From the NCBI RefSeq assembly GCF_055900595.2, contig NZ_CM148325.1: 64,000 nucleotides of DNA; one strand, written 5' to 3'. Below the pieces are notes generated by a model, which was not told the DNA's origin, searched no databases, and saw nothing but the letters and a program-made list of their open reading frames with translations. The first letter of the stretch is position 1, and each line of letters starts with the position of its first letter. The position numbers were made by a program, and so were the translations under genes. Positions 7,026 through 52,770 of the stretch are shown here, piece after piece.

Positions 7026-7874
7026 ATGGAAAAGAAATTTTTTATGGATTGGGATAATGAAATCCCGCAAGAAGAGTTTATTAACAATATTTTAGCCGAT
7101 GAAGACCTGCCTAAAATCCGCTCTCTGATTATTGGTCGTTGGGGGGAGTGCTGGGATGAGGAAAGTTGCCAACCAATAATCGACATGTTTGTTGAACATG
7201 CCGAACGCTTTGCTCATCTCGAATCCCTATTTATCGGCGATATGGAAAGCGAAGAGTGTGAAATTTCGTGGATAAAACAAGGGGATTATTCTCGTCTGTA
7301 TGCTGCGCTGCCGAACCTCAAAAAGCTGACAATTAAAGGTACTCAGGGCCTGGAACTGGGAGAAATCGCCCATGACAAACTGGAGCATCTGGAAATTATC
7401 TCTGGCGGTACGCCGTGTGACGTGTTCGCCTCATTGCAAAATGCCCAACTGCCTGCGTTAAAAACACTTATCGTTTATATTGGCGTTGAGAATTATGGTT
7501 TTGATGCATCGCTGGATATCGTAATGAAGCTGGCGTCGAAATCCCTCTTCCCGAGCCTGACGCATCTTGGCCTGGTGAACAGCGAAGAGCAAAACGAAAT
7601 CGTCCGCCGCGTGCTGGAAAGCGACATTCTGCCGCAACTGGAAGTGCTGGCACTCTCCTGCGGTACGCTTACCGACGAAGGTGCAGAGCATCTTCTCAAA
7701 CATGCCGATCGCCTTAGCCATCTGAAACTGCTGGATTTGTACCATCATTACCTGACAGAAGAGATGCAGAAAAAACTGCAAAAAACACTGACATGTACTC
7801 TCGAATTATCAGAAGCGCTAACGCCTGAAGTCTATGATGACGAAATTTATATGCATGCGATGTATACCGAATAA
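7026..7874 (+). CDS. Leucine-rich-repeat-like acidic cytoplasmic protein (I recall the family being labelled STM4015-like)
   Basis: 282-aa ORF with no signal peptide; repeated L-P-x-L-K-x-L / L-x-x-L-x-L segments (LPNLKKLTIKG, LEHLEIISGG, LPALKTLIVYIG, FPSLTHLGLVNS, LPQLEVLALSCG, LSHLKLLDL); AAGGA 8 nt upstream of ATG. Confidence 0.7.
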   Translation: MEKKFFMDWDNEIPQEEFINNILADEDLPKIRSLIIGRWGECWDEESCQPIIDMFVEHAERFAHLESLFIGDMESEECEISWIKQGDYSRLYAALPNLKKLTIKGTQGLELGEIAHDKLEHLEIISGGTPCDVFASLQNAQLPALKTLIVYIGVENYGFDASLDIVMKLASKSLFPSLTHLGLVNSEEQNEIVRRVLESDILPQLEVLALSCGTLTDEGAEHLLKHADRLSHLKLLDLYHHYLTEEMQKKLQKTLTCTLELSEALTPEVYDDEIYMHAMYTE

Positions 7875-7934
7875 ATGACATTTATTGGGAGAGAGTCATC
7901 TCTCCCATTATTTATCACAGAAAAGGAATTCTTC

Positions 7935-8921
7935 GTGATTACGCTAATTGGTCATCCTGAAAGCAAACGCACATTTTATTTTTGCCAGGCAGCGTCACGC
8001 TTACAGGAACATATCAACGTAGTGAGCTATGATCAAGCACTTACCCTGCTCTTAAATAAAGGCATGGTAAAAATCGATCCCCCCTTACATCAGGAAACAG
8101 ATATTCGCTTAATTAATACGGTTAGCCAAAACTATATTACTTTTTTACAAAAAATGGCTACCAGAAGGGAGATCCGTTTTATTAACTCACCAGAAGGTAT
8201 TATTCATCTTCTGGATAAACGCCACTGTAAGCAACGATTAGTCGAACACGCGATCCCGACACCGCCAATATTAGCGGATGATATCCGTAGCTACGATCAA
8301 CTGATCGCCTGTATGCGCAGCGAAAAGGTTTATCGCGTGTTTATTAAGCCGAATTTCGGATCAGGGGCCGCCGGGGTGCTGGCTTTGAGTCTACATCCCG
8401 GCGATAACCGTCAGGTGCTTTATTGCGCCATCCAGGTTGCAGGTGACAGGCTGGTGAACAGTAAACATATTATCCGCTATGAAAACAGCGGTGATATTAC
8501 GTTGATTGTGAATGCTATTTTACAACAAGACAATATTATCGAACGCTGGCTGGCAAAAGCCAGAGTGGGCAATAAAAGCTACGATTTACGCATCGTGTAC
8601 GTTAATGGTGAAATCGTCTGGCGGGTTGTCAGAACATCATCACAGCCGATCACCAATTTACATTTACAAAATGAAGCTATCCGTTTTGCCGATCTTAATT
8701 TACCCGTAGAAAAAGTAGCTGAAATTGATACGCTTTGTCTCAACGCCATGACCCTCTATCCGGACGTACACATTGCCGGGCTTGACGTATTACTCACGCA
8801 AAATTTAACACCCTATATTATCGAAATTAACGGCCAGGGCGATCTTATTTATCAGGACACCTGCGAAAAAAACAAAATTTATCAACGCCAGATTCAGGTA
8901 ATGAGAGAACATCATGTATAA
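7935..8921 (+). CDS. ATP-grasp-like protein (I recall the family being labelled STM4014-like)
   Basis: ORF 7875-8921; start placed at in-frame GTG 7935 because AAGGA lies 7 nt upstream, but the ATG at 7875 immediately after the preceding stop is an alternative. The ATP-grasp assignment is by resemblance only. Confidence 0.55.
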   Translation: MITLIGHPESKRTFYFCQAASRLQEHINVVSYDQALTLLLNKGMVKIDPPLHQETDIRLINTVSQNYITFLQKMATRREIRFINSPEGIIHLLDKRHCKQRLVEHAIPTPPILADDIRSYDQLIACMRSEKVYRVFIKPNFGSGAAGVLALSLHPGDNRQVLYCAIQVAGDRLVNSKHIIRYENSGDITLIVNAILQQDNIIERWLAKARVGNKSYDLRIVYVNGEIVWRVVRTSSQPITNLHLQNEAIRFADLNLPVEKVAEIDTLCLNAMTLYPDVHIAGLDVLLTQNLTPYIIEINGQGDLIYQDTCEKNKIYQRQIQVMREHHV

Positions 8922-9786
8922 CGTAACAGACGAAGTACCGGAAAATACCCGCACGGCAATCCATTCCTGCGATGGCGAAATCAATCTGAATGATTTAATT
9001 GCCAGGGAAGCCAATATCCTGTTTGTGGTGCTTGATTCCCTGCGTTTTGATATTGCGTTTCAGGAACAAGAGGCGGGAAATACACCAAATATTAACCGCT
9101 ATGGTCGCTGGATAAAGTGTGAAGCCGCTGGCAATTTTACCTGGCCTTCGCATCATTCGATGTTCTCTGGTTTTATGCCTAAGCCGCTGGAAGCTGCACC
9201 TGGTCATTCAATGCTCTTTTTCCCGAAAGATATTGGTTTAGGTCGTTTAGGGCCAAAAAATGCGTTCGCGTTCAGCGAAGAGACGTGGATTAAAGGGCTG
9301 GAAAACAAAGGTTACCGCACTATCTGCGTGGGTGGCGTCTCCTTTTTTAATAACCGCTCAGGGATGGGAAAAGTGTTCCCGGCGATGTTTAAAGAGAGTT
9401 ACTGGTATCCTAATTTCTCCTGCACGGTGAAAGAGAGCATGGATAATCAGCTCACCTTAATTAACAAAAAGGTGAACGCTGAACAGCCGCTGATGATGTA
9501 TATCAATATCGACACCATTCATTATCCGAATCATTTTTATATTGAAAATGCCAAACCTGGCGATACGGTAGAAACTCACGCCGCTGCCCTGCATTATATT
9601 GATGCCAGAATCGAAAAACTTTTCGATATCTTTCGGCAAACCGGGCGGGAGACGTTAGTTATTCTCTGTTCCGATCATGGCACCTGCTACGGGGAAGACG
9701 GTAAATATTTCCACAGTTTTAACCATCCGATTGTGAATACCGTACCCTATTTTCACTTTGTGTTAGACGGCAAAGACCATGAATAA
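8914..9786 (+). CDS. Alkaline-phosphatase-superfamily metallo-hydrolase (phosphodiesterase/phosphomutase/sulfatase-like core)
   Basis: 290-aa ORF with N-terminal FVVLDSLRFD motif typical of AlkP-core metal-binding enzymes; start overlaps the upstream stop by 8 nt. Confidence 0.7.
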   Translation: MYNVTDEVPENTRTAIHSCDGEINLNDLIAREANILFVVLDSLRFDIAFQEQEAGNTPNINRYGRWIKCEAAGNFTWPSHHSMFSGFMPKPLEAAPGHSMLFFPKDIGLGRLGPKNAFAFSEETWIKGLENKGYRTICVGGVSFFNNRSGMGKVFPAMFKESYWYPNFSCTVKESMDNQLTLINKKVNAEQPLMMYINIDTIHYPNHFYIENAKPGDTVETHAAALHYIDARIEKLFDIFRQTGRETLVILCSDHGTCYGEDGKYFHSFNHPIVNTVPYFHFVLDGKDHE

Positions 9787-11017
9787 TGAATCGATTTATC
9801 AGCAATATATGTACAGTTACCCGCATAAGACCGCTTATCGGGAATTAAACAATATTGCTTTTGCGGATGTGAAATCGCGTATTTACGAGCATAAAACACA
9901 TCTCTATATTCATATGCCTTTTTGCCAGAGCCGCTGCGGGTTTTGTAATCTCTTTACCTGCACGGGGGCAGACAATGCCTTTATCGACAACTACATAGAA
10001 GCAATTATTATCCAGGCCCGGCAAATGCAACTTGCGCCTGTAGACTGGGCCAGTTTTACCATTGGCGGCGGTACGCCACTACTGCTTAATACCGGGCAAC
10101 TGTCACGGTTGTTTCGCGGGGTGTTTGACGAATTACAGGTCGATGCGCAGATTTTTAAGGCAATTGAAACATCGCCTTCCGATACCACCGCCGAAAAGGT
10201 CGCGTTATTGCGCCAGCTTGCGGTAAACCGCGTCAGTATTGGCATTCAGAGTTTTAACGATCTGGAACTTGCCACATTACACCGCCGCCATAGTGCGGAA
10301 AATGCCCATCGGGCGCTGGAGCTACTGCGCAGGGGTAATTTCCCGATAATCAATATTGATATTATTTACGGTATTCCTGGTCAAACAGCCGCAAGTTTAA
10401 TGGCGTCGCTTAATCAAGCATTAGATTATCAGCCTGACGAACTGTTTCTGTACCCGCTATATAACATGCCGCGTCAGCCGGATATGTATAGCCTCTATAT
10501 TGAAGCCCGCGATCGCTTATTGCATGAAGGTTATACGCAAACGTCAATGCGCCGTTTTGTGCGGGTGAATAATGATTCGGCGGCTGAAAGTTGTGGCTTT
10601 GAAAATTCGCTGGCGCTTGGCGCGGGCGGGCGCAGTTATCTTGGCAATTTACATTACTGCACGCCGTGGTCGCAAAACCAGCCCGCATCGCGGCAAATTG
10701 TCACGGATTTTATCGCCCGGCCAGATAAGACCCAGATTCACCACGGCTATGTACTTTCACAAGCAGAAATGAAGCGGCGTTTTATTATCAAGAATCTCTT
10801 TTTCTATAAGGGGCTTTCGTTACGGGATTATCAGCACCAGTTCTTCTCTGAGGTATTAAGCGATTTTCCCCTGCTGGGCGATTTCATCAAACAAGATTAC
10901 TGCCACCAGCAGGATAATCGTATTCTGCTCACCGCGCAGGGTTTAGCGCTTTCGGACCAGCTTGGCCCGCTGTTTATCTCCCCGGAAGTTCGCAGGCTGG
11001 AGACGCATAAACGATGA
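9779..11017 (+). CDS. HemN/HemW-like radical SAM protein
   Basis: 412-aa ORF with YIHMPFCQSRCGFC (C49-x3-C53-x2-C56) radical SAM motif in HemN-like context; start overlaps the upstream stop. Confidence 0.8.
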   Translation: MNNESIYQQYMYSYPHKTAYRELNNIAFADVKSRIYEHKTHLYIHMPFCQSRCGFCNLFTCTGADNAFIDNYIEAIIIQARQMQLAPVDWASFTIGGGTPLLLNTGQLSRLFRGVFDELQVDAQIFKAIETSPSDTTAEKVALLRQLAVNRVSIGIQSFNDLELATLHRRHSAENAHRALELLRRGNFPIINIDIIYGIPGQTAASLMASLNQALDYQPDELFLYPLYNMPRQPDMYSLYIEARDRLLHEGYTQTSMRRFVRVNNDSAAESCGFENSLALGAGGRSYLGNLHYCTPWSQNQPASRQIVTDFIARPDKTQIHHGYVLSQAEMKRRFIIKNLFFYKGLSLRDYQHQFFSEVLSDFPLLGDFIKQDYCHQQDNRILLTAQGLALSDQLGPLFISPEVRRLETHKR

Positions 11018-11871
11018 CGCTCAAGCAGATCCAGACGCTGATTTATCGCGGCGAGATAAAGTCGTGTAATTATCGCTGTGGTTATTGCCCTTTTCATAAA
11101 CAAGACCGCAATGATAAACAGCAGGATGAAGTGGCATTATGGCGCATGGTTGAACATTTACCGGCGCAGGGTTCACCATTAAATGTATTTATTACGCCCT
11201 ACGGCGAAGCATTGCGTTATCGTTATTATATGGCGGCGATGGCGGAAATCAGCCGCTATTCCCATGTGCAGGCGGTGGGTATTCAGACCAACGCCTCTTT
11301 TAATTTATCCACCTTAGTCGCGACTTTTCAGCACTCTCAGGGCGATTTAGCAAAGCTGCGGCTGTGGTGTTCGTTTCATCCTTCCCAGGCAAGTAAAGAA
11401 GTTTTCCTTAAACAGTTACTGGCAATTAAGGACACGGGGATTACCTGTTCTGTGGGGGCCGTCGCCAGCGTAGCCGACTATGACGAATTACAGTGGTTAC
11501 GCGCGCATCTTCCTCCCGATATCTATTTCTGGCTAAACGCCAATGAGCGCGATAAAAGGCCCACCAGCGACGAAAGAAATAGCCAGTTTCAGTTGCTGGA
11601 CCCGCTTTATTATCTGGAAACCAGCCTCTGGCCTGCCAATGTCGAGTTTTGTCTGGGCGGCAAAAAGAGCGTGTTTATGAATGCTGATGGCGATCTCTTC
11701 GCCTGTAATATCAGCAAAATTAAGATTGGCAATTTATATCAACAGCAACTTTCATCTCCGTCTTGTATGTCCAGGCACTGTCACTGTTATCTGGCTTATC
11801 ACCTGCGTGAGGATATTCCGGCCCTCTCACAATTTGATGCTGAACGCTGCTTTCGGATCTTCTCGTTATGA
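11014..11871 (+). CDS. Small radical SAM protein with C-terminal Cys/His cluster
   Basis: 285-aa ORF; CNYRCGYC (C18-x3-C22-x2-C25) near N-terminus; C231, C251, C256, C258 near C-terminus; ATGA overlap with upstream stop. Confidence 0.75.
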   Translation: MTLKQIQTLIYRGEIKSCNYRCGYCPFHKQDRNDKQQDEVALWRMVEHLPAQGSPLNVFITPYGEALRYRYYMAAMAEISRYSHVQAVGIQTNASFNLSTLVATFQHSQGDLAKLRLWCSFHPSQASKEVFLKQLLAIKDTGITCSVGAVASVADYDELQWLRAHLPPDIYFWLNANERDKRPTSDERNSQFQLLDPLYYLETSLWPANVEFCLGGKKSVFMNADGDLFACNISKIKIGNLYQQQLSSPSCMSRHCHCYLAYHLREDIPALSQFDAERCFRIFSL

Positions 11872-12563
11872 TCTGGCGGTTAATCGCGCTCGATTTAGAC
11901 GGCACATTGCTGAACAGCAAGAAGATGATTTCCCCTGCGTCTGTTTCGGCACTGCAAAGCGCACAACAGGCAGGTGTGAAAATTATCCTCGCCACCGGAC
12001 GTTCGCACAGCGAAGCCCTGCCTTATTACCAACAATTGCAGTTAACCGAGCCGATGATTTGCTGTAACGGCAGCTATCTTTATCATCCGCGCCAGCGGCA
12101 AATATTGCGTCCGCTGGCGCTTGATATCCACAAGGTGGAAAGGCTACGACTCTGGTTTTCACAACAAATATTGCAGCCAAATATTTATACGTACGATGAT
12201 TTTGTTTTGCAGATTAGCCTGATACACCGCAAGGCTTCGTTATTGCGCCAGACAGAGGAATTTGCCCGACAAGAATTATCGCTGGCCTGTAGCTGGTCCT
12301 GGCATCATCAACTGGATATTACACAGGTGGGGTGTGAGAAAGGCAAAAGTCTGGCCTGGTATGCCCGACAGCAAAATATCGTGCTGGATGAAATCATCGC
12401 CTTTGGCGATAACGATAATGATGCGGGGATGCTGCGGATGGTAGGCAAAGGGATTGCGATGGGCAATGGCAGTTCGCTGGCAAAAGTCAGTGCTGACCGC
12501 GTTATTGGTCACAACAACACAGATGCTATTGCGGATTTTCTTGATGCGCAGGGTTTCAGATGA
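11868..12563 (+). CDS. HAD-superfamily Cof-type phosphatase
   Basis: 231-aa ORF with N-terminal ALDLDGTLL motif (HAD motif I) and GDNDND near the C-terminus; ATGA overlap with upstream stop. Confidence 0.8.
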   Translation: MIWRLIALDLDGTLLNSKKMISPASVSALQSAQQAGVKIILATGRSHSEALPYYQQLQLTEPMICCNGSYLYHPRQRQILRPLALDIHKVERLRLWFSQQILQPNIYTYDDFVLQISLIHRKASLLRQTEEFARQELSLACSWSWHHQLDITQVGCEKGKSLAWYARQQNIVLDEIIAFGDNDNDAGMLRMVGKGIAMGNGSSLAKVSADRVIGHNNTDAIADFLDAQGFR

Positions 12564-12653: not shown

Positions 12654-14477
12654 TTAATCGTCTTTCGGTGCGCGGTTGGCGCGACGACGATCGTTTTCCG
12701 TCAGGTGACGTTTACGAATACGGATAGAGGTCGGAGTCACTTCTACCAGTTCGTCATCATCGATGAACTCCAGCGCTTGTTCCAGCGTCATGCGGATAGG
12801 CGGAACCAGAACAACGGCTTCGTCAGTACCGGAAGCACGCATGTTGGTCAGTTTCTTACCGGTCAGACAGTTTACAGTCAGGTCGTTAGAACGGCTGTGA
12901 ATACCGATAATCTGACCTTCGTAAACTTCTGCACCGTGACCGAGGAACAGCTTACCGCGATCCTGCAGACCGAACAGCGCGAACGCGACCGCTTTACCCT
13001 GACCGTTAGAGATCAGTACGCCGTTCTGACGCTGACCCACTTCACCCGGACGCACGTCGTCGTAGTGGCTGAAGGTGGAGTACAACAGACCCGTACCAGA
13101 GGTCATGGTCATGAACTCAGAACGGAAGCCAATCAGACCACGGCTTGGGATCACGTAGTCGAGACGTACGCGGCCTTTACCGTCTGGATTCATGTTTTTC
13201 AGGTCGCCTTTACGTTCGCCCAGCGCCTGCATCACAGAACCCTGATGCTGTTCTTCAACGTCCAGCGTCACGTTTTCATACGGCTCTTGTTTACGACCGT
13301 CGATTTCACGGAAGATAACTTTCGGACGGGATACCGCCAGTTCGAAACCTTCACGACGCATGTTTTCGATCAGAACAGACAGGTGCAGTTCGCCACGACC
13401 AGAAACGCGGAACGCATCGGCGTCTTCAGTTTCTTCTACGCGCAGCGCAACGTTGTGTACCAGTTCTTTGTTCAGACGATCCAGAATCTGACGAGACGTT
13501 ACGAACTTACCTTCTTTACCGCAGAACGGCGAGGTGTTAACGCAGAAGAACATAGAAACGGTCGGCTCATCAACGGAGAGTGCCGGCAGCGCTTCAACGT
13601 TTTGCGTGTCGCAAACGGTGTCAGAAATGTTCAGTTCGCCCAGGCCCGTGATCGCCACGATATCGCCAGCTTCCGCCAGATCGGTTTCGATACGTTCCAG
13701 ACCGAGGTGGCCCAGCACTTTACCGACTTTCGCGTTGCGGGTTTTGCCTTCGCTATCGATGATAGTAACTTGCTGGTTCGGCTTCACTTTACCGCGCTTG
13801 ATGCGGCCAATGCCGATAACGCCAACATAGCTGTTGTAATCGAGCTGAGAAATCTGCATCTGGAACGGACCGTCAAGGTCAACGTCCGGCGCAGGAACGT
13901 GGTCAACAATTGCCTGATACAGCGGGGTCATGTCTTCCGCCATATCTTCGTGGTCCAGACCGGCGATACCGTTCAGCGCAGAAGCGTAAACGATCGGGAA
14001 GTCCAGCTGCTCGTCGGTCGCGTCGAGGTTAACGAACAGGTCGAATACCTGATCCACAACCCAGTCAGGACGCGCGCCAGGGCGGTCAACTTTGTTGATA
14101 ACAACAATTGGCTTCAGGCCGTAAGCAAACGCTTTTTTGGTTACGAAGCGCGTTTGCGGCATCGGGCCGTCAAATGCGTCAACCACCAGCAGCACTGAGT
14201 CTACCATGGACATTACACGTTCAACTTCACCACCGAAGTCGGCGTGCCCCGGGGTATCAACGATGTTGATACGGTAATCATTCCATTTGATAGCGGTGTT
14301 TTTCGCGAGGATGGTAATCCCACGCTCTTTCTCCAAATCGTTGGAGTCCATCACGCGCTCTTGGGTTTCGGCACGAGAGTCGAACGTACCGGATTGTTGG
14401 AGCAGCTTGTCTACCAGGGTGGTTTTACCATGGTCTACGTGCGCGATGATGGCGATATTACGCAATTTTTCGATCAC
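12654..14477 (-). CDS. typA: Ribosome-associated translational GTPase BipA/TypA
   Basis: 607-aa ORF with G-domain motifs ([18 protein letters not shown]). Confidence 0.95.
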
Positions 14478-14626
14478 AACTTTGCCTCAGGCATTAGAAA
14501 TAGCGCGTTATTGTACACGGATTAATCGCACTACAAAACAGGATCACAAACATCCTCCGCAAACAAGTATTGCAGAGTCCCTTTGTGATCGCTTTCACGG
14601 AGCATAAAAAGGGTTATCCAAAGGTC

Positions 14627-14720
14627 ATTGCACCAATATGGTGCTTAATGTTTCCATTGAAGCACTATATTGGTGCAATATTCACATCGTGGTGCAGCCC
14701 TTTTGCACGATGGTGCGCAT
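14627..14720 (+). promoter_or_regulatory. NtrC (NRI) enhancer binding sites upstream of glnA
   Basis: Repeated TGCACC-N5-GGTGCA-like dyads (tgcaccaatatggtgc, gcactatattggtgca, ggtgcagcccttttgcac). Confidence 0.7.
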
Positions 14721-14749
14721 GATAACGCCTTTTAGGGGCAATTTAAAAG

Positions 14750-14766
14750 TTGGCACAGTTTTCGCT
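14750..14766 (+). promoter_or_regulatory. Sigma-54 promoter glnAp2
   Basis: tTGGCACagttttCGCt matches the -24 GG / -12 GC sigma-54 consensus about 85 bp upstream of glnA. Confidence 0.8.
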
Positions 14767-14849
14767 TTATCTTTTTTACGGCGACACGGCCAAAATAATT
14801 GCAGATTTCGTTACCACGACGACCATGACCAATCCAGGAGAGTTAAAGT

Positions 14850-16259
14850 ATGTCCGCTGAACACGTACTGACGATGCTGAACGAGCACGAAGTGAAGTTT
14901 GTTGATTTGCGCTTCACCGATACCAAAGGTAAAGAACAGCACGTCACTATCCCTGCTCATCAGGTGAATGCTGAATTCTTCGAAGAAGGCAAAATGTTTG
15001 ACGGCTCCTCGATTGGCGGCTGGAAAGGCATTAACGAATCCGACATGGTGCTGATGCCAGACGCATCCACCGCAGTGATTGACCCGTTCTTCGCGGACTC
15101 TACCCTGATTATCCGTTGCGATATCCTTGAACCAGGCACCCTGCAAGGCTATGACCGTGACCCGCGTTCCATCGCGAAGCGCGCTGAAGATTACCTGCGT
15201 TCTACTGGCATTGCCGACACCGTACTGTTCGGGCCAGAACCTGAATTCTTCCTGTTCGATGACATCCGTTTCGGCGCGTCTATCTCCGGTTCTCATGTTG
15301 CCATCGACGATATCGAAGGTGCATGGAACTCCTCCACCAAATATGAAGGTGGTAACAAAGGTCACCGTCCGGCAGTGAAAGGCGGTTACTTCCCGGTTCC
15401 GCCGGTAGACTCTGCTCAGGATATCCGTTCTGAAATGTGTCTGGTGATGGAACAGATGGGACTGGTAGTTGAAGCCCATCACCACGAAGTAGCGACTGCT
15501 GGTCAGAACGAAGTGGCTACCCGCTTCAATACCATGACCAAAAAAGCTGACGAAATTCAGATCTACAAATATGTTGTGCACAACGTAGCACACCGCTTCG
15601 GTAAAACCGCGACCTTTATGCCAAAACCGATGTTCGGTGATAACGGCTCCGGTATGCACTGCCACATGTCACTGTCTAAAAACGGCGTCAACCTGTTCGC
15701 TGGCGACAAATATGCAGGTCTGTCTGAGCAGGCGTTGTACTACATTGGCGGCGTAATCAAACACGCTAAAGCAATTAACGCCCTGGCAAACCCGACCACC
15801 AACTCTTACAAGCGTCTGGTCCCGGGCTACGAAGCACCGGTAATGCTGGCTTACTCTGCGCGCAACCGTTCTGCGTCTATCCGTATTCCAGTGGTTTCTT
15901 CTCCGAAAGCACGTCGTATCGAAGTCCGTTTCCCGGACCCAGCGGCTAACCCGTACCTGTGCTTTGCTGCCCTGCTGATGGCCGGTCTTGATGGTATCAA
16001 GAACAAGATCCACCCAGGCGAAGCCATGGACAAAAACCTGTATGACCTGCCGCCAGAAGAAGCGAAAGAGATCCCACAGGTTGCAGGCTCTCTGGAAGAA
16101 GCACTGAACGAACTGGATCTGGACCGCGAGTTCCTGAAAGCCGGTGGCGTGTTCACTGACGAAGCCATTGATGCGTACATCGCTCTGCGTCGCGAAGAAA
16201 ATGACCGCGTGCGTATGACTCCGCATCCGGTAGAGTTTGAGCTGTACTACAGCGTCTAA
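14850..16259 (+). CDS. glnA: Glutamine synthetase
   Basis: 469-aa ORF recognised as E. coli GlnA. Confidence 0.95.
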
Positions 16260-16320
16260 TAGTTGAAGTTGTACTACCCGGTGCTAAGAAGGCCGGGATT
16301 TAGTTGCCGTGGAAACTTTC

Positions 16321-16346
16321 AGCCCATCTCTGCATGGGCTTTTTTC
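16321..16346 (+). terminator. glnA rho-independent terminator
   Basis: agcccatctctgcatgggct hairpin followed by TTTTTT. Confidence 0.75.
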
Positions 16347-16390
16347 TCCGTAACTTCTTTGATGCTTCGCGCTTTTTATCCGTAAAAAGC

Positions 16391-16412
16391 TATAATGCAC
16401 TAAAATGGTGCA
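16391..16412 (+). promoter_or_regulatory. glnL promoter -10 with overlapping NtrC site
   Basis: TATAAT immediately followed by gcactaaaatggtgca dyad. Confidence 0.6.
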
Positions 16413-16433
16413 ACCTGTTCAGGAGACTGCTTT

Positions 16434-17483
16434 ATGGCAACAGGCACGCAGCCCGATGCTGGGCAGATCCTCAACTCGCTGATTAACAGTATTTTGTTAA
16501 TTGATGACAACCTGGCGATCCATTACGCCAACCCCGCCGCACAACAACTGCTCGCTCAAAGCTCCCGCAAATTGTTTGGTACACCGTTACCGGAACTGTT
16601 GAGCTACTTCTCATTAAATATCGAGCTGATGCAAGAAAGTCTTGAGGCGGGGCAAGGTTTTACCGATAACGAAGTGACGCTGGTCATCGACGGGCGCTCG
16701 CATATCCTTTCTGTGACGGCCCAGCGTATGCCGGACGGCATGATCCTGCTGGAGATGGCACCGATGGATAACCAGCGCCGCTTAAGTCAGGAACAGCTAC
16801 AGCACGCCCAGCAGGTTGCTGCCCGTGATTTAGTGCGCGGCCTGGCGCATGAGATTAAAAATCCGCTTGGCGGTTTACGTGGCGCGGCCCAGTTGCTCAG
16901 CAAAGCATTACCTGACCCGTCACTGCTCGAATATACCAAAGTGATTATCGAACAGGCGGACCGGCTGCGAAATCTGGTCGACCGTCTGTTGGGGCCGCAG
17001 CTGCCTGGTACGCGCGTTACCGAAAGTATTCACAAAGTGGCTGAACGCGTGGTGACGTTGGTGTCGATGGAACTGCCGGACAACGTGCGGTTGATTCGTG
17101 ATTACGACCCCAGCCTGCCGGAACTGGCGCACGACCCGGATCAAATTGAACAGGTATTGCTGAATATTGTGCGCAATGCACTTCAGGCGCTGGGGCCGGA
17201 AGGTGGTGAAATCATTCTGCGTACCCGCACCGCGTTTCAACTGACTTTACACGGCGAGCGCTATCGGCTGGCGGCGCGGATTGATGTGGAAGATAACGGG
17301 CCAGGCATTCCGCCTCATTTGCAGGATACGCTGTTTTACCCGATGGTCAGCGGCCGCGAAGGTGGCACCGGGCTTGGCTTATCCATCGCCCGTAATTTGA
17401 TTGATCAGCATTCAGGCAAAATTGAATTTACCAGTTGGCCAGGTCATACCGAGTTCTCGGTTTACCTGCCTATCAGGAAATAA
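16434..17483 (+). CDS. glnL: Nitrogen regulation sensor histidine kinase NtrB
   Basis: 349-aa ORF with H-box ([11 protein letters not shown]) and ATPase motifs. Confidence 0.95.
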
Positions 17484-19140: not shown

Positions 19141-19244
19141 GCCGGATGCGGAGAAAGTCGTAGGCCTGATAAGACGCGACCAGCGTCGCATCAGGCATCA
19201 TGCTCAGATGCCGGATGCAGCGTAAACGCCTTATCCGGCCTACA
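19141..19244. repeat. REP/BIME cluster
   Basis: Several gccggatgcg...cgcatccggc / gcctgataagacgcg...cgtcgcatcaggc palindromic units. Confidence 0.75.
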
Positions 19245-21426: not shown

Positions 21427-21492
21427 AATGGTTCGTCTTTTAGCCGTTTTATTCAGTATAGATTTGCGGCGGAATCTAACAGAAAGCAAGCA

Positions 21493-21737
21493 AAGAAAAA
21501 AGGCGACAGATTACTCTGTCGCCTTTTTTCCTGACTCATAACCCTTAACGGGTCTTACAATCCTTGCAGGCCGCCAACACACCCTGTTTTTCCATTAGCC
21601 GGAACAATCCGTGTTGATTCCATTTCCGTTTAATTACGTCTCCGGACGTTTGTCTTCCTGACAATCCTCTGTCTTCGCCTCCTGGCGCTCCTGACCCTCA
21701 TCCTGAGTCATTGTTCCTGTTAGCGTCCTCGCTCTAT
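21493..21737 (-). ncRNA. csrC: CsrC small RNA (CsrA-sequestering)
   Basis: - strand begins ATAGAGCGAGGACGCTAACAGG, carries many GGA motifs (AGGATGAGGGTCAGGAGCGCCAGGAGG...) and ends in the ggcgacagagtaatctgtcgcc hairpin plus T-tract. Confidence 0.8.
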
Positions 21738-22765: not shown

Positions 22766-22874
22766 TAAAAAACGCCCCAGTCATTACTGACTGGGGCGGC
22801 TAAAATATTCAGCCAAATCCGATTACGTGAAGTAAAAGGTCTGAAAGATAGAACATCTTACCTCTGTACCCTAC
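22766..22874 (-). ncRNA. spf: Spot 42 small RNA
   Basis: - strand reads GTAGGGTACAGAGGTAAGATGTTCTATCTTTCAGACC...GCCCCAGTCAGTAATGACTGGGGCGTTTTTTA, which I recognise as Spot 42 including its terminator. Confidence 0.9.
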
Positions 22875-23021
22875 GCGACTAACTTTACTCTTTTTTGTTC
22901 AGTTCAGAAAGCATTTTTTGTAATTTTTTTTCAGTTGTTGCATAGGAATTTCTAATAGCCATCACAAAACGTGACAGCTTATGTTGCTTACTTACGAAAA
23001 AAGGGCATGTTCAGGCGAATC

Positions 23022-31949: not shown

Positions 31950-32070
31950 ATGCCTGGCAGTTCCCTACTCTCGCATGGGGAGACCCCACACTACCATCGG
32001 CGCTACGGCGTTTCACTTCTGAGTTCGGCATGGGGTCAGGTGGGACCACCGCGCTAAGGCCGCCAGGCAA
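31950..32070 (-). rRNA. rrfA: 5S ribosomal RNA
   Basis: Reverse complement matches E. coli 5S rRNA (TGCCTGGCGGC...GGAACTGCCAGGCAT). Confidence 0.95.
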
Positions 32071-32162
32071 ATTCTGTTTCATCAGACCGCTTCTGCGTTC
32101 TGATTTAATCTGTATCAGGCTGAAAATCTTCTCTCAATCCGCCAAAACATCTTCGGCGTTGT

Positions 32163-35067
<2,905 letters not shown>

Positions 35068-35250
35068 TCACAACCCGAAGATGTTTCTTTCGATTCATCA
35101 TCGTGTTGCGAAAATTTGAGAGACTCACGAACAACTTTCGTTGTTCAGTGTTTCAATTTTCAGCTTGATCCAGATTTTTAAAGAGCAAAACTTCGCAGTG
35201 AACCTTTGCAGGTACACTCTGAAGTATTTTTTATTTAATCACTACAGAGA

Positions 35251-35326
35251 TGGTGGAGCTATGCGGGATCGAACCGCAGACCTCCTGCGTGCAAAGCAGG
35301 CGCTCTCCCAGCTGAGCTATAGCCCC
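35251..35326 (-). tRNA. alaT: tRNA-Ala (UGC)
   Basis: Reverse complement is GGGGCTATAGCTCAGCTGGGAGAGCGCCTGCTTTGCACGCAGGAGGTCTGCGGTTCGATCCCGCATAGCTCCACCA. Confidence 0.95.
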
Positions 35327-35368
35327 ATAACATGTAGTTAAAACCTCTTCAAATTTGCGGTGCAAATT

Positions 35369-35445
<77 letters not shown>

Positions 35446-35513
35446 GTAGAGGTTTTACTGCTCATTCTCATCAGACAATCTGTGTGAGCACTGCAAAGAA
35501 CAGTTCTTTCAGG

Positions 35514-37055
<1,542 letters not shown>

Positions 37056-50527: not shown

Positions 50528-52770
<2,243 letters not shown>

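What the first reader, a model, noticed from the sequence alone, without database searches (positions are those of the whole stretch)
16260..16346. glnA 3' untranslated region ending in a strong terminator may yield a 3'UTR-derived small RNA
The 60 nt between the glnA stop and its terminator hairpin form a structured, conserved-looking segment. I recall reports of a glnA 3'UTR-derived sRNA (GlnZ) in enterobacteria, which would map here.
Basis: partly seen in the sequence, partly recalled or inferred. Interest (0 to 1): 0.3.

Follow-up and report, generated by a model that had tools for sequence, protein, structure and literature searches.

The report
GlnZ small RNA in glnA 3'UTR

Summary
glnA ends at 16259, and an 86-nt 3'UTR runs from 16260 to an intrinsic terminator (stem 16321-16340, U-run 16340-16345).

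The published GlnZ seed, 5'-UUGCCGUGGAAA-3', sits at 16304-16315, directly before that terminator. This is the short "O157-type / Class I" GlnZ, first published as EsrF.

- **Within E. coli:** 2857 of 5426 complete genomes carry this short form.
- **Across species:** 35 of 41 Enterobacterales have the seed downstream of glnA with at most one mismatch, while the rest of the UTR is unalignable. None of 39 other gammaproteobacteria has it.
- **Targets:** the seed segment pairs with the published sites in sucA, glnP and aceE. Those sites are intact in a genome identical to the window at this locus.

Two caveats apply. The "structured" claim is weak, because the whole UTR folds no better than shuffles. 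Conservation covers only the seed and terminator.

The only local peculiarity is a rare allele, present in 13 of 5426 genomes. It has four clustered changes that weaken the upstream hairpin.

Verdict: a real feature, correctly identified, already known and of low interest. Expression, RNase E processing and Hfq dependence are inferred from the literature and were not tested here.

The parts
14850..16259 (+). glnA (glutamine synthetase) coding sequence. This is the parental mRNA from whose 3' end the sRNA is released.
   Evidence: A 469-aa ORF. It is annotated as glnA in the identical strain Z0117EC0005 and in 5425 E. coli genomes.
14751..14766 (+). Sigma-54 promoter motif of glnA (glnAp2-like, TGGCACAGTTTTCGCT). 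It is the nitrogen-limitation input to glnA and therefore to GlnZ.
   Evidence: Pattern match with 1 mismatch. Assigning it to glnAp2 rests on established knowledge of the glnALG operon and. The motif alone is not significant in the window: 4 matches found against 3.1 expected.
14629..14677 (+). Two NtrC-type palindromes (TGCACCAATATGGTGCT and AGCACTATATTGGTGCA) upstream of glnA.
   Evidence: 1 and 2 mismatches to TGCACC-N4-TGGTGCA. Their function is inferred from the known glnA enhancer.
16260..16345 (+). Full glnA 3'UTR, the full-length Class I / O157-type GlnZ (EsrF). It is 86 nt here against 85 nt in O157, because of a 1-nt insertion in the hairpin loop.
   Evidence: Alignment with O157, O111-type and K-12 loci. 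The EsrF 5' end was mapped by RACE to the T right after the glnA stop, with a length of 85 nt.
16277..16297 (+). Upstream hairpin (CCCGGU / GCCGGG stem, 9-nt loop GCUAAGAAG), carried here as a rare allele. The common E. coli form is CCCGGCG-CAACAA-CGCCGGG.
   Evidence: Folds: -10.6 kcal/mol here against -14.9 for the O157 allele. Alignment. Allele frequency is 13 identical genomes of 5426.
16295..16303 (+). GGGAUUUAG, the motif that Jia et al. 2021 reported as essential for EsrF binding to the flhB 5'UTR. It also contains a candidate RNase E site, GA|UUU, at 16298/16299.
   Evidence: Motif quoted and present in the sequence. The flhB complement CTAAATCCC lies at -93 in K-12. The RNase E site is my inference from the RN|WUU consensus cited.
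16304..16315 (+). GlnZ seed, 5'-UUGCCGUGGAAA-3'.
   Evidence: Exact and unique in the window. Published as the seed. Invariant or 1 mismatch in 35 of 41 Enterobacterales glnA 3'UTRs. It pairs with the sucA, glnP and aceE sites.
16321..16345 (+). Rho-independent terminator of glnA and 3' end of GlnZ (AGCCCAU-CUCUGC-AUGGGCU followed by a U-run). It is the presumed Hfq-binding 3' module.
   Evidence: Terminator scan. The helix is 98.6% paired in 35 species, with 5 of 8 pairs invariant and 2 pairs showing double changes. Hfq binding is inferred from the literature.
16391..16412 (+). glnL promoter -10 (TATAAT) overlapping an NtrC palindrome (TGCACTAAAATGGTGCA). It marks the downstream boundary of the sRNA locus and is not part of the sRNA.
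   Evidence: Sequence and palindrome with 1 mismatch. It is conserved across species while the intervening spacer is not.

Best explanation
The segment 16260-16345 is the E. coli GlnZ small RNA in its short Class I / O157-type form, which is the same RNA published as EsrF.

**Proposed mechanism**
1. Under nitrogen limitation, NtrC and sigma-54 activate glnAp2, and glnA is transcribed through to the intrinsic terminator at 16321-16345.
2. RNase E, helped by Hfq, cuts around the stop codon and releases the roughly 86-nt 3'UTR. A further cut just 5' of the seed probably gives a species of about 47 nt.
3. The single-stranded seed UUGCCGUGGAAA (16304-16315), together with the flanking UUUAG, pairs with three mRNAs: the sucA 5'UTR (about -48 to -33), the glnP ribosome-binding region (-22 to -11) and the aceE 5'UTR (-105 to -91).
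4. Pairing lowers 2-oxoglutarate dehydrogenase, glutamine transporter and pyruvate dehydrogenase E1 expression. This preserves 2-oxoglutarate for ammonium assimilation.

**Shown here:** the anatomy, seed identity, cross-species conservation, target complementarity and promoter motifs.

**Taken from the literature, not shown here:** transcription, RNase E and Hfq dependence, and repression.

**My inference:** the internal cleavage at 16298/16299.
For: - **Seed:** it is exact and unique in the window and identical to the published seed.
- **Architecture:** it matches the 85-nt O157 type / Class I, with the seed directly before the terminator.
- **E. coli population:** 2857 of 5426 complete genomes carry the short form over at least 80% of its length. 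About 1000 more match only the seed-plus-terminator half, which fits the O111-type insertion.
- **K-12 annotation:** RefSeq annotates ncRNA glnZ b4836 at the homologous site.
- **Unbiased survey of 80 glnA loci:** the seed is present with at most 1 mismatch in 35 of 41 Enterobacterales. It lies 9 to 320 nt after the stop, with the terminator's T-run about 35 nt after the seed start in all but the two seed-near-stop (Class III-like) loci. No match with 2 or fewer mismatches occurs in 39 non-Enterobacterales.
- **K-12 targets:** the best duplexes of the seed segment fall on the published sites. These are sucA at -20.4 kcal/mol (12 of 1000 shuffles as good), aceE at -20.7 (1 of 1000) and glnP at -18.4 (19 of 1000).
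- **Own-strain targets:** the same sites are unchanged in strain Z0117EC0005, which is identical to the window at this locus.
- **aceE pairing:** U at the position equivalent to O157 U41 (16301), which is needed for aceE pairing, is retained.
- **Promoter elements:** a sigma-54 motif and NtrC palindromes lie upstream of glnA.
- **Published experiments on the O157-type RNA:** induction by nitrogen limitation, and repression of glnP, sucA and aceE with compensatory mutants. RNase E and Hfq dependence were shown for the K-12 and Salmonella forms.
Against: - No expression data exist for this strain or for this allele.
- The whole-UTR fold is not better than shuffles (z -0.69).
- In the predicted fold of the full-length form, the first 3 of the seed's 12 nt are paired with GUACUA upstream of the hairpin. 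The unprocessed form may therefore be less active.
- The upstream hairpin is 4.3 kcal/mol weaker than in the common allele, with unknown effect on stability.
- No Rfam family reaches its gathering score here. The best is Ysr49 at 28.8 bits against a threshold of 95.
- Duplex energies against shuffled targets are good but not overwhelming for sucA and glnP: 12 to 29 of 1000 shuffles do as well.
- One paper (Jia 2021) reports opposite regulation and a different target.
Confidence: 0.9

Rival explanations
1. The EsrF model of Jia et al. 2021. In this view the 85-nt RNA is a primary transcript from its own promoter inside the glnA 3' end. It is repressed by NtrC and therefore higher in high ammonium. 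It acts through GGGAUUUAG to bind the flhB 5'UTR and raise flagellar gene expression, motility and virulence.
For: - The GGGAUUUAG motif is intact at 16295-16303.
- Its complement, CTAAATCCC, lies at -93 of flhB in K-12.
- The predicted duplex with the flhB leader is not weakened by the window's allele: -25.6 against -21.7 kcal/mol for O157.
- Jia et al. reported RACE, TEX, REMSA and mutant data.
- dRNA-seq in K-12 hinted at a weak internal promoter.
Against: - No sigma-70-like promoter was found on the + strand anywhere in 14400-16700.
- Two independent groups found EsrF/GlnZ of O157 induced by low, not high, nitrogen.
- Those groups also found GlnZ lost when the glnA promoter is deleted, and a PglnZ-lacZ fusion nearly silent.
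- GGGAUUUAG is half buried in the stem of the upstream hairpin.
- That motif is not conserved outside Escherichia (columns 1-8).
- flhB regulation could still be an additional, strain-specific activity.
Confidence: 0.07
2. The region is only cis-acting. It would be a 3'UTR plus terminator that stabilises glnA mRNA and sets the ratio of glnA to glnLG read-through, with no trans-acting RNA function.
For: - The terminator is real.
- Deleting it in K-12 slightly lowers GlnA.
- The UTR as a whole folds no better than chance.
Against: - A purely cis role does not explain a 12-nt single-stranded block held invariant across families of Enterobacterales while everything between it and the stop codon varies from 9 to 320 nt.
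- It does not explain the block's complementarity to three metabolic mRNAs.
- It does not explain the published compensatory-mutation results.
- Swapping UTR types did not change GlnA or NtrC levels.
Confidence: 0.02
3. The region encodes a small protein. The candidates are the mechanical ORFs 16263-16385 (40 aa, TTG start) and 16304-16486 (60 aa, TTG start).
For: Both ORFs are listed.
Against: - Both have TTG starts with no evident ribosome-binding site.
- Both run straight through the terminator.
- Within E. coli the frame is interrupted by the 98-nt (O111-type) and REP (K-12-type) insertions and by a 1-nt indel.
- Conservation across species is at the nucleotide level and confined to the seed and terminator.
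Confidence: 0.01

Closest known systems
GlnZ of E. coli O157 type (Miyakoshi 2022) = Class I GlnZ (Walling 2022) = EsrF (Jia 2021)
   Same: - The locus is the same: the 3'UTR of glnA, ending at its terminator.
- The length is 85 against 86 nt.
- The seed, terminator, 5' 17 nt and GGGAUUUAG motif are all identical.
- Identity is 95.7% over 94 nt.
   Different: Four clustered changes lie in the upstream hairpin (C>U, +U, C>G, C>G). The stem drops from 7 to 6 pairs and the loop grows from 6 to 9 nt, a loss of 4.3 kcal/mol. The allele is found in only 13 of 5426 complete genomes.
GlnZ of E. coli K-12 (b4836, 194 nt; Class III)
   Same: It has the same seed, the same terminator, the same parental gene and the same targets.
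   Different: In K-12 the seed sits 9 nt after the stop. A REP-derived long stem-loop separates it from the terminator, which makes the RNA an RNase III substrate. Here the seed abuts the terminator and there is no REP insertion.
Salmonella GlnZ1 (185 nt) and GlnZ2 (about 50 nt) (Class II)
   Same: The seed lies directly before the terminator. A short species of about 50 nt is made by RNase E, and sucA and glnP are repressed.
   Different: - Salmonella has about 140 nt of unrelated sequence between the stop and the seed.
- It has an extra G next to the seed, which abolishes aceE pairing and adds deoD as a target.
- The window has U at that position, as in other E. coli.
Rfam RF02766 Ysr49 (Yersinia sRNA 49)
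   Same: The 3' half of the model is the GlnZ seed plus terminator. It hits glnA 3'UTRs in Escherichia, Citrobacter, Pectobacterium, Pantoea, Hafnia and Yersinia.
   Different: All of these hits, including the window at 28.8 bits, fall below the gathering score of 95. The 5' half of the model does not align.
Other RNase E-released 3'UTR sRNAs of enterobacteria (SdhX, CpxQ, SroC)
   Same: The mRNA 3' end doubles as an Hfq-dependent trans-acting sRNA that shares the parental terminator.
   Different: They have different parental genes, seeds and regulons.

Membership tests
GlnZ (glnA 3'UTR-derived sRNA) | [quoted passage not shown] | tested here: met
   glnA is 14850-16259, the terminator 16321-16345 and glnL starts at 16434.
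GlnZ (glnA 3'UTR-derived sRNA) | Contains the conserved seed 5'-UUGCCGUGGAAA-3'. | tested here: met
   Exact match at 16304-16315, the only one in the window. The seed is as published.
GlnZ (glnA 3'UTR-derived sRNA) | Has the conserved terminator (GCCCAU...AUGGGC followed by a U-run) shared across Enterobacterales. | tested here: met
   Alignment of 35 species and pair counts of 98.6% paired.
GlnZ (glnA 3'UTR-derived sRNA) | The seed is complementary to the sucA 5'UTR and the glnP translation-initiation region (and to aceE in E. coli). | tested here: met
   The best duplexes fall on the published sites in K-12. They do the same in strain Z0117EC0005, which is identical to the window at this locus. 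This is in silico only.
GlnZ (glnA 3'UTR-derived sRNA) | Made from the NtrC/sigma-54-dependent glnA transcript and induced by nitrogen limitation. | not testable with these tools
   The promoter and enhancer motifs are present. Expression was shown only in the literature, for O157, O111 and K-12 strains.
GlnZ (glnA 3'UTR-derived sRNA) | Released by RNase E and dependent on Hfq. | not testable with these tools
   Shown in the literature for K-12 and Salmonella, with Hfq dependence of EsrF. The candidate cleavage contexts here are inference only.
Class I / O157-type GlnZ | A short UTR of about 85 nt, with the seed directly upstream of the terminator and no REP or 98-nt insertion. | tested here: met
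   The UTR is 86 nt. It aligns end to end with O157:H7 with a single 1-nt indel, whereas the K-12 and O111-type loci carry insertions.
EsrF as defined by Jia et al. 2021 | An 85-nt RNA starting at the T after the glnA stop, with the GGGAUUUAG motif complementary to the flhB 5'UTR. | tested here: met
   The sequence features are present. The claimed independent promoter was looked for and no sigma-70-like site was found. The claimed regulation is contradicted.
Rfam RF02766 Ysr49 | Score at or above the curated gathering threshold of 95 bits. | tested here: not met
   28.8 bits, E 0.0079, at 16240-16345.

The most novel reading that the evidence does not exclude
The rare hairpin allele is found in 13 of 5426 genomes and has four clustered changes at 16282-16292. 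It may be functionally different from the common O157-type GlnZ.

The weaker stem and the loop change from CAACAA to GCUAAGAAG could alter RNase E processing, half-life or Hfq contact. The change keeps an A-A-N periodicity (AAC AAC becomes AAG AAG). That would shift how strongly nitrogen limitation represses sucA, glnP and aceE in this lineage.
Probability: 0.1. Interest if true: 0.2.

Novelty: already known. Interest (0 to 1): 0.1.

Why it matters
GlnZ links nitrogen status to carbon flux. The same transcript that makes glutamine synthetase releases an RNA that throttles 2-oxoglutarate dehydrogenase, pyruvate dehydrogenase and glutamine import.

That biology is published (2021-2023), and the gene is annotated in K-12. 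Recognising it here therefore adds nothing conceptually.

The practical value is for annotation. NCBI's automatic annotation of the genome identical to the window lists no RNA gene between glnA and glnL. No Rfam family reaches its threshold on this short form. As a result, the most common E. coli form of GlnZ (2857 of 5426 genomes) is currently invisible to standard pipelines.

Tried and rejected
- **Whole-length RNAduplex** of the 87-nt RNA against target leaders gave meaningless end-to-end duplexes no better than shuffles. I replaced it with the single-stranded segment 16299-16320.
- **Thermodynamic support for 'structured'** was rejected for the whole UTR (z -0.53 and -0.69).
- **Covariation support for the terminator** is weak because the helix is almost invariant in sequence. 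Five of 8 pairs never vary and only 2 cells show double changes. That speaks neither for nor against the fold.
- **Rfam at gathering thresholds** found nothing at the locus. The Ysr49 hit falls short of its threshold.
- **An internal sigma-70 promoter** for an independent esrF transcript was not found. The scan is crude, though, and also misses the known glnL promoter.
- **Small-ORF reading** was rejected (see rivals).
- **A link between the window's hairpin allele and the O111-type lineage** (L010, which shares the post-terminator changes) was checked and rejected, because L010 has the common hairpin.

Full report
**What is in the sequence**

The window is E. coli. Positions 16100-16440 are 100% identical to strain Z0117EC0005 and match 5425 of 5426 complete E. 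coli genomes at the glnA-glnL junction.

- glnA is the 469-codon ORF 14850-16259, with stop TAA at 16257-16259, and glnL starts at 16434.
- The 174-nt gap holds one terminator-like site on the + strand. Its stem is 16321-16340 (7 pairs, 6-nt loop), followed by six T. By direct reading, the T-run is 16340-16345 and 16346 is a C.

**Checking 'structured, conserved-looking'**

The 87-nt stretch folds at -24.0 kcal/mol against -21.7 for dinucleotide shuffles (z -0.69; 42 of 200 shuffles fold as well) (one search gives a similar result). As a whole it is not unusually structured.

It contains two hairpins and a connecting segment.

- An upstream hairpin pairs 16277-16282 with 16292-16297 (-10.6 kcal/mol, z -1.77).
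- The terminator forms the second hairpin.
- The segment 16298-16320 between them is predicted to be largely single-stranded. In the full-length form, the first three seed bases can pair with GUACUA upstream of the hairpin.

**Identity**

Miyakoshi et al. (PMC9731577) define the GlnZ seed as 5'-UUGCCGUGGAAA-3'. That 12-mer occurs exactly once in the 64-kb window, at 16304-16315, five bases before the terminator stem.

They classify E. coli glnA 3'UTRs into three types:

- K-12 type, 197 nt;
- O157 type, 85 nt;
- O111 type, 230 nt, which is the O157 type plus a 98-nt insertion.

Walling et al. call the short form Class I and equate it with EsrF of EHEC.

An alignment of the window with O157:H7, an O111-type strain and K-12 shows end-to-end colinearity with O157 apart from a 1-nt indel. 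The other two carry their insertions. K-12 RefSeq annotates the homologous RNA as glnZ, b4836, 194 nt, starting 3 nt after the glnA stop.

**Frequency in E. coli**

- With the 94-nt query, 2857 of 5426 genomes match over at least 80% of the length, which is the short form.
- About 1000 more match only from position 43 onward, that is, the seed plus terminator. This fits the O111-type insertion.
- The remainder (K-12 type) fall below threshold.

**Conservation beyond E. coli**

I took glnA itself as the anchor, so the seed did not bias the sample. This gave 80 gammaproteobacterial loci, one per species.

- Downstream of the stop codon, the seed is exact in 29 and has one mismatch in 6 of 41 Enterobacterales. 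The families covered are Enterobacteriaceae, Yersiniaceae, Hafniaceae, Erwiniaceae and Pectobacteriaceae.
- Two Rosenbergiella species have a degenerate seed with the same terminator.
- Four Enterobacterales have none.
- None of the 39 Orbales, Vibrio, Aeromonas or Alteromonadales loci has a match with 2 or fewer mismatches.
- The distance from stop to seed ranges from 9 to 320 nt and is unalignable.
- From the seed start to the T-run the distance is about 35 nt in all but the two Class III-like loci.
- The module aligns at 85% mean column identity.
- The terminator helix is 98.6% paired, but 5 of its 8 pairs never vary. It is conserved as sequence, and covariation evidence is minimal.

**Targets**

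The single-stranded segment 16299-16320 was tested against K-12 leaders, and its best duplexes fall on the published sites.

| Target | Position relative to start | Energy (kcal/mol) | Shuffled targets as good |
|---|---|---|---|
| sucA | -48 to -33 | -20.4 | 12 of 1000 |
| aceE | -105 to -91 | -20.7 | 1 of 1000 |
| glnP | -22 to -11 | -18.4 | 19 of 1000 |

The aceE site covers the published C-99 position.

I then located sucA, glnP and aceE in strain Z0117EC0005. The three sites are unchanged there and give the same duplexes. The sucA and glnP leader regions are present in at least 5420 of 5426 genomes at 95% identity or better. The U next to the seed that Miyakoshi et al. found necessary for aceE regulation (O157 U41) is retained at 16301.

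**Mechanism: what is shown and what is inferred**

Shown here:

- the anatomy, seed and terminator;
- target complementarity;
- a sigma-54 motif at 14751-14766 and NtrC palindromes at 14629-14677 upstream of glnA.

From the literature:

- GlnZ is lost when the glnA promoter or ntrC is deleted, and a putative internal promoter is nearly silent.
- RNase E and Hfq are required for release. Release is needed for sucA repression.
- O157 and O111 strains make RNAs of the size of their 3'UTRs, plus processed species, on glutamine.
- EHEC EsrF is induced by nitrogen deprivation and represses glnP, sucA and aceE through the seed.
- Salmonella makes a GlnZ2 of about 50 nt by RNase E cleavage.

My inference: GA|UUU at 16298/16299 fits the RN|WUU consensus. 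Cleavage there would give a roughly 47-nt species with a fully free seed. In most other species a U-run occupies this position.

**The rival**

Jia et al. 2021 (PMC8092317) described the same RNA as EsrF. Their account has five parts:

- an 85-nt RNA with its 5' end at the T after the stop;
- independent transcription;
- repression by NtrC;
- higher levels in high ammonium;
- activation of flhB through GGGAUUUAG.

The motif is intact at 16295-16303, and its complement is present in the flhB leader. However, I found no sigma-70-like promoter on the + strand. Two groups also contradict the reported regulation. I keep this as a possible additional, strain-specific activity at low confidence.

**What is particular to this window**

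The upstream hairpin differs from the common allele at four clustered positions: CCCGGCGCAACAACGCCGGG becomes CCCGGTGCTAAGAAGGCCGGG. This weakens it from -14.9 to -10.6 kcal/mol.

The exact 94-nt sequence occurs in 13 of 5426 complete genomes, and four more are at 98.9% identity. Nothing suggests a change of function. The seed, the terminator, the U next to the seed and the flhB motif are all untouched.

**Databases**

- No Rfam family reaches its gathering score at the locus.
- The best sub-threshold hit is Ysr49 (RF02766). The 3' half of that model is the GlnZ seed plus terminator, and it hits glnA 3'UTRs in six other genera, also below threshold.
- The PGAP annotation of the identical strain lists no RNA gene there.

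**Verdict**

The feature is the already known GlnZ/EsrF in its most common E. coli form, carried here as a rare and probably neutral allele. Interest is low.

Noticed in passing
window 14559-14666 (- strand): An Rfam ES222 sRNA match well above threshold (133 bits against 62). It lies antisense in the typA-glnA intergenic region and overlaps the NtrC palindromes upstream of glnA. A weaker ES222 match lies upstream of glnA in Citrobacter werkmanii (L012:704-812, 82 bits).
   Followed up: no
window 16346-16349, and alignment A2 columns 51-54: The four bases CUCC right after the terminator U-run are conserved in almost all 35 Enterobacterales. The next 40 nt or so are not, and conservation returns only at the glnL promoter and NtrC operator. 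The papers I read did not mention this, and its meaning is unknown.
   Followed up: partly
window 16282-16292: A rare hairpin allele of GlnZ with four clustered changes. It is identical in only 13 of 5426 complete E. coli genomes. The loop changes from AAC-AAC to AAG-AAG, which keeps an A-A-N periodicity.
   Followed up: partly
window 16350-16361: There are three further substitutions just after the terminator, GTAACTTCTTTG against GTCAATTCTCTG in O157 and K-12. Two of the three are shared with E. coli SCPM-O-B-8794 (L010), which nevertheless has the common hairpin and the O111-type insertion.
   Followed up: partly
window about 7027-12563 (+ strand): Between typA and ompL the matching genome carries a six-gene cluster: a Cof-type HAD hydrolase, STM4011 and STM4012 radical SAM proteins, an STM4013 hydrolase, STM4014, and a frameshifted STM4015. 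The coordinates were mapped from the annotation of NZ_CP098223.1.
   Followed up: no
window 16391-16412: The glnL promoter -10 (TATAAT) directly abuts a near-perfect NtrC palindrome, TGCACTAAAATGGTGCA. Both are conserved across Enterobacterales.
   Followed up: partly
L005 (E. coli AMSHJX01, NZ_CP030939.1): In this one genome the match starts only after the terminator. glnL is preceded by frameshifted clsB and ybhP fragments instead of glnA, and glnL itself is frameshifted. This is either a rearrangement or a poor assembly. Separately, two of the 5425 matches to the glnA-glnL junction are on records typed as plasmids.
   Followed up: no
window 19163-19240, 21484-21737, 22766-22884, 31952-37055, 52165-52416 (all - strand): Other Rfam matches above threshold: naRNA4, CsrC, Spot 42, a complete rRNA operon with two tRNAs and StyR-44, and Erse.
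   Followed up: no
L023, L044, L047, L051: Four Enterobacterales have no recognisable GlnZ seed within 450 nt of the glnA stop. They are Enterobacter sp. BIGb0383, Budvicia diplopodorum, a Pantoea symbiont of Nezara, and an uncultured MAG. These are possible losses.
   Followed up: no
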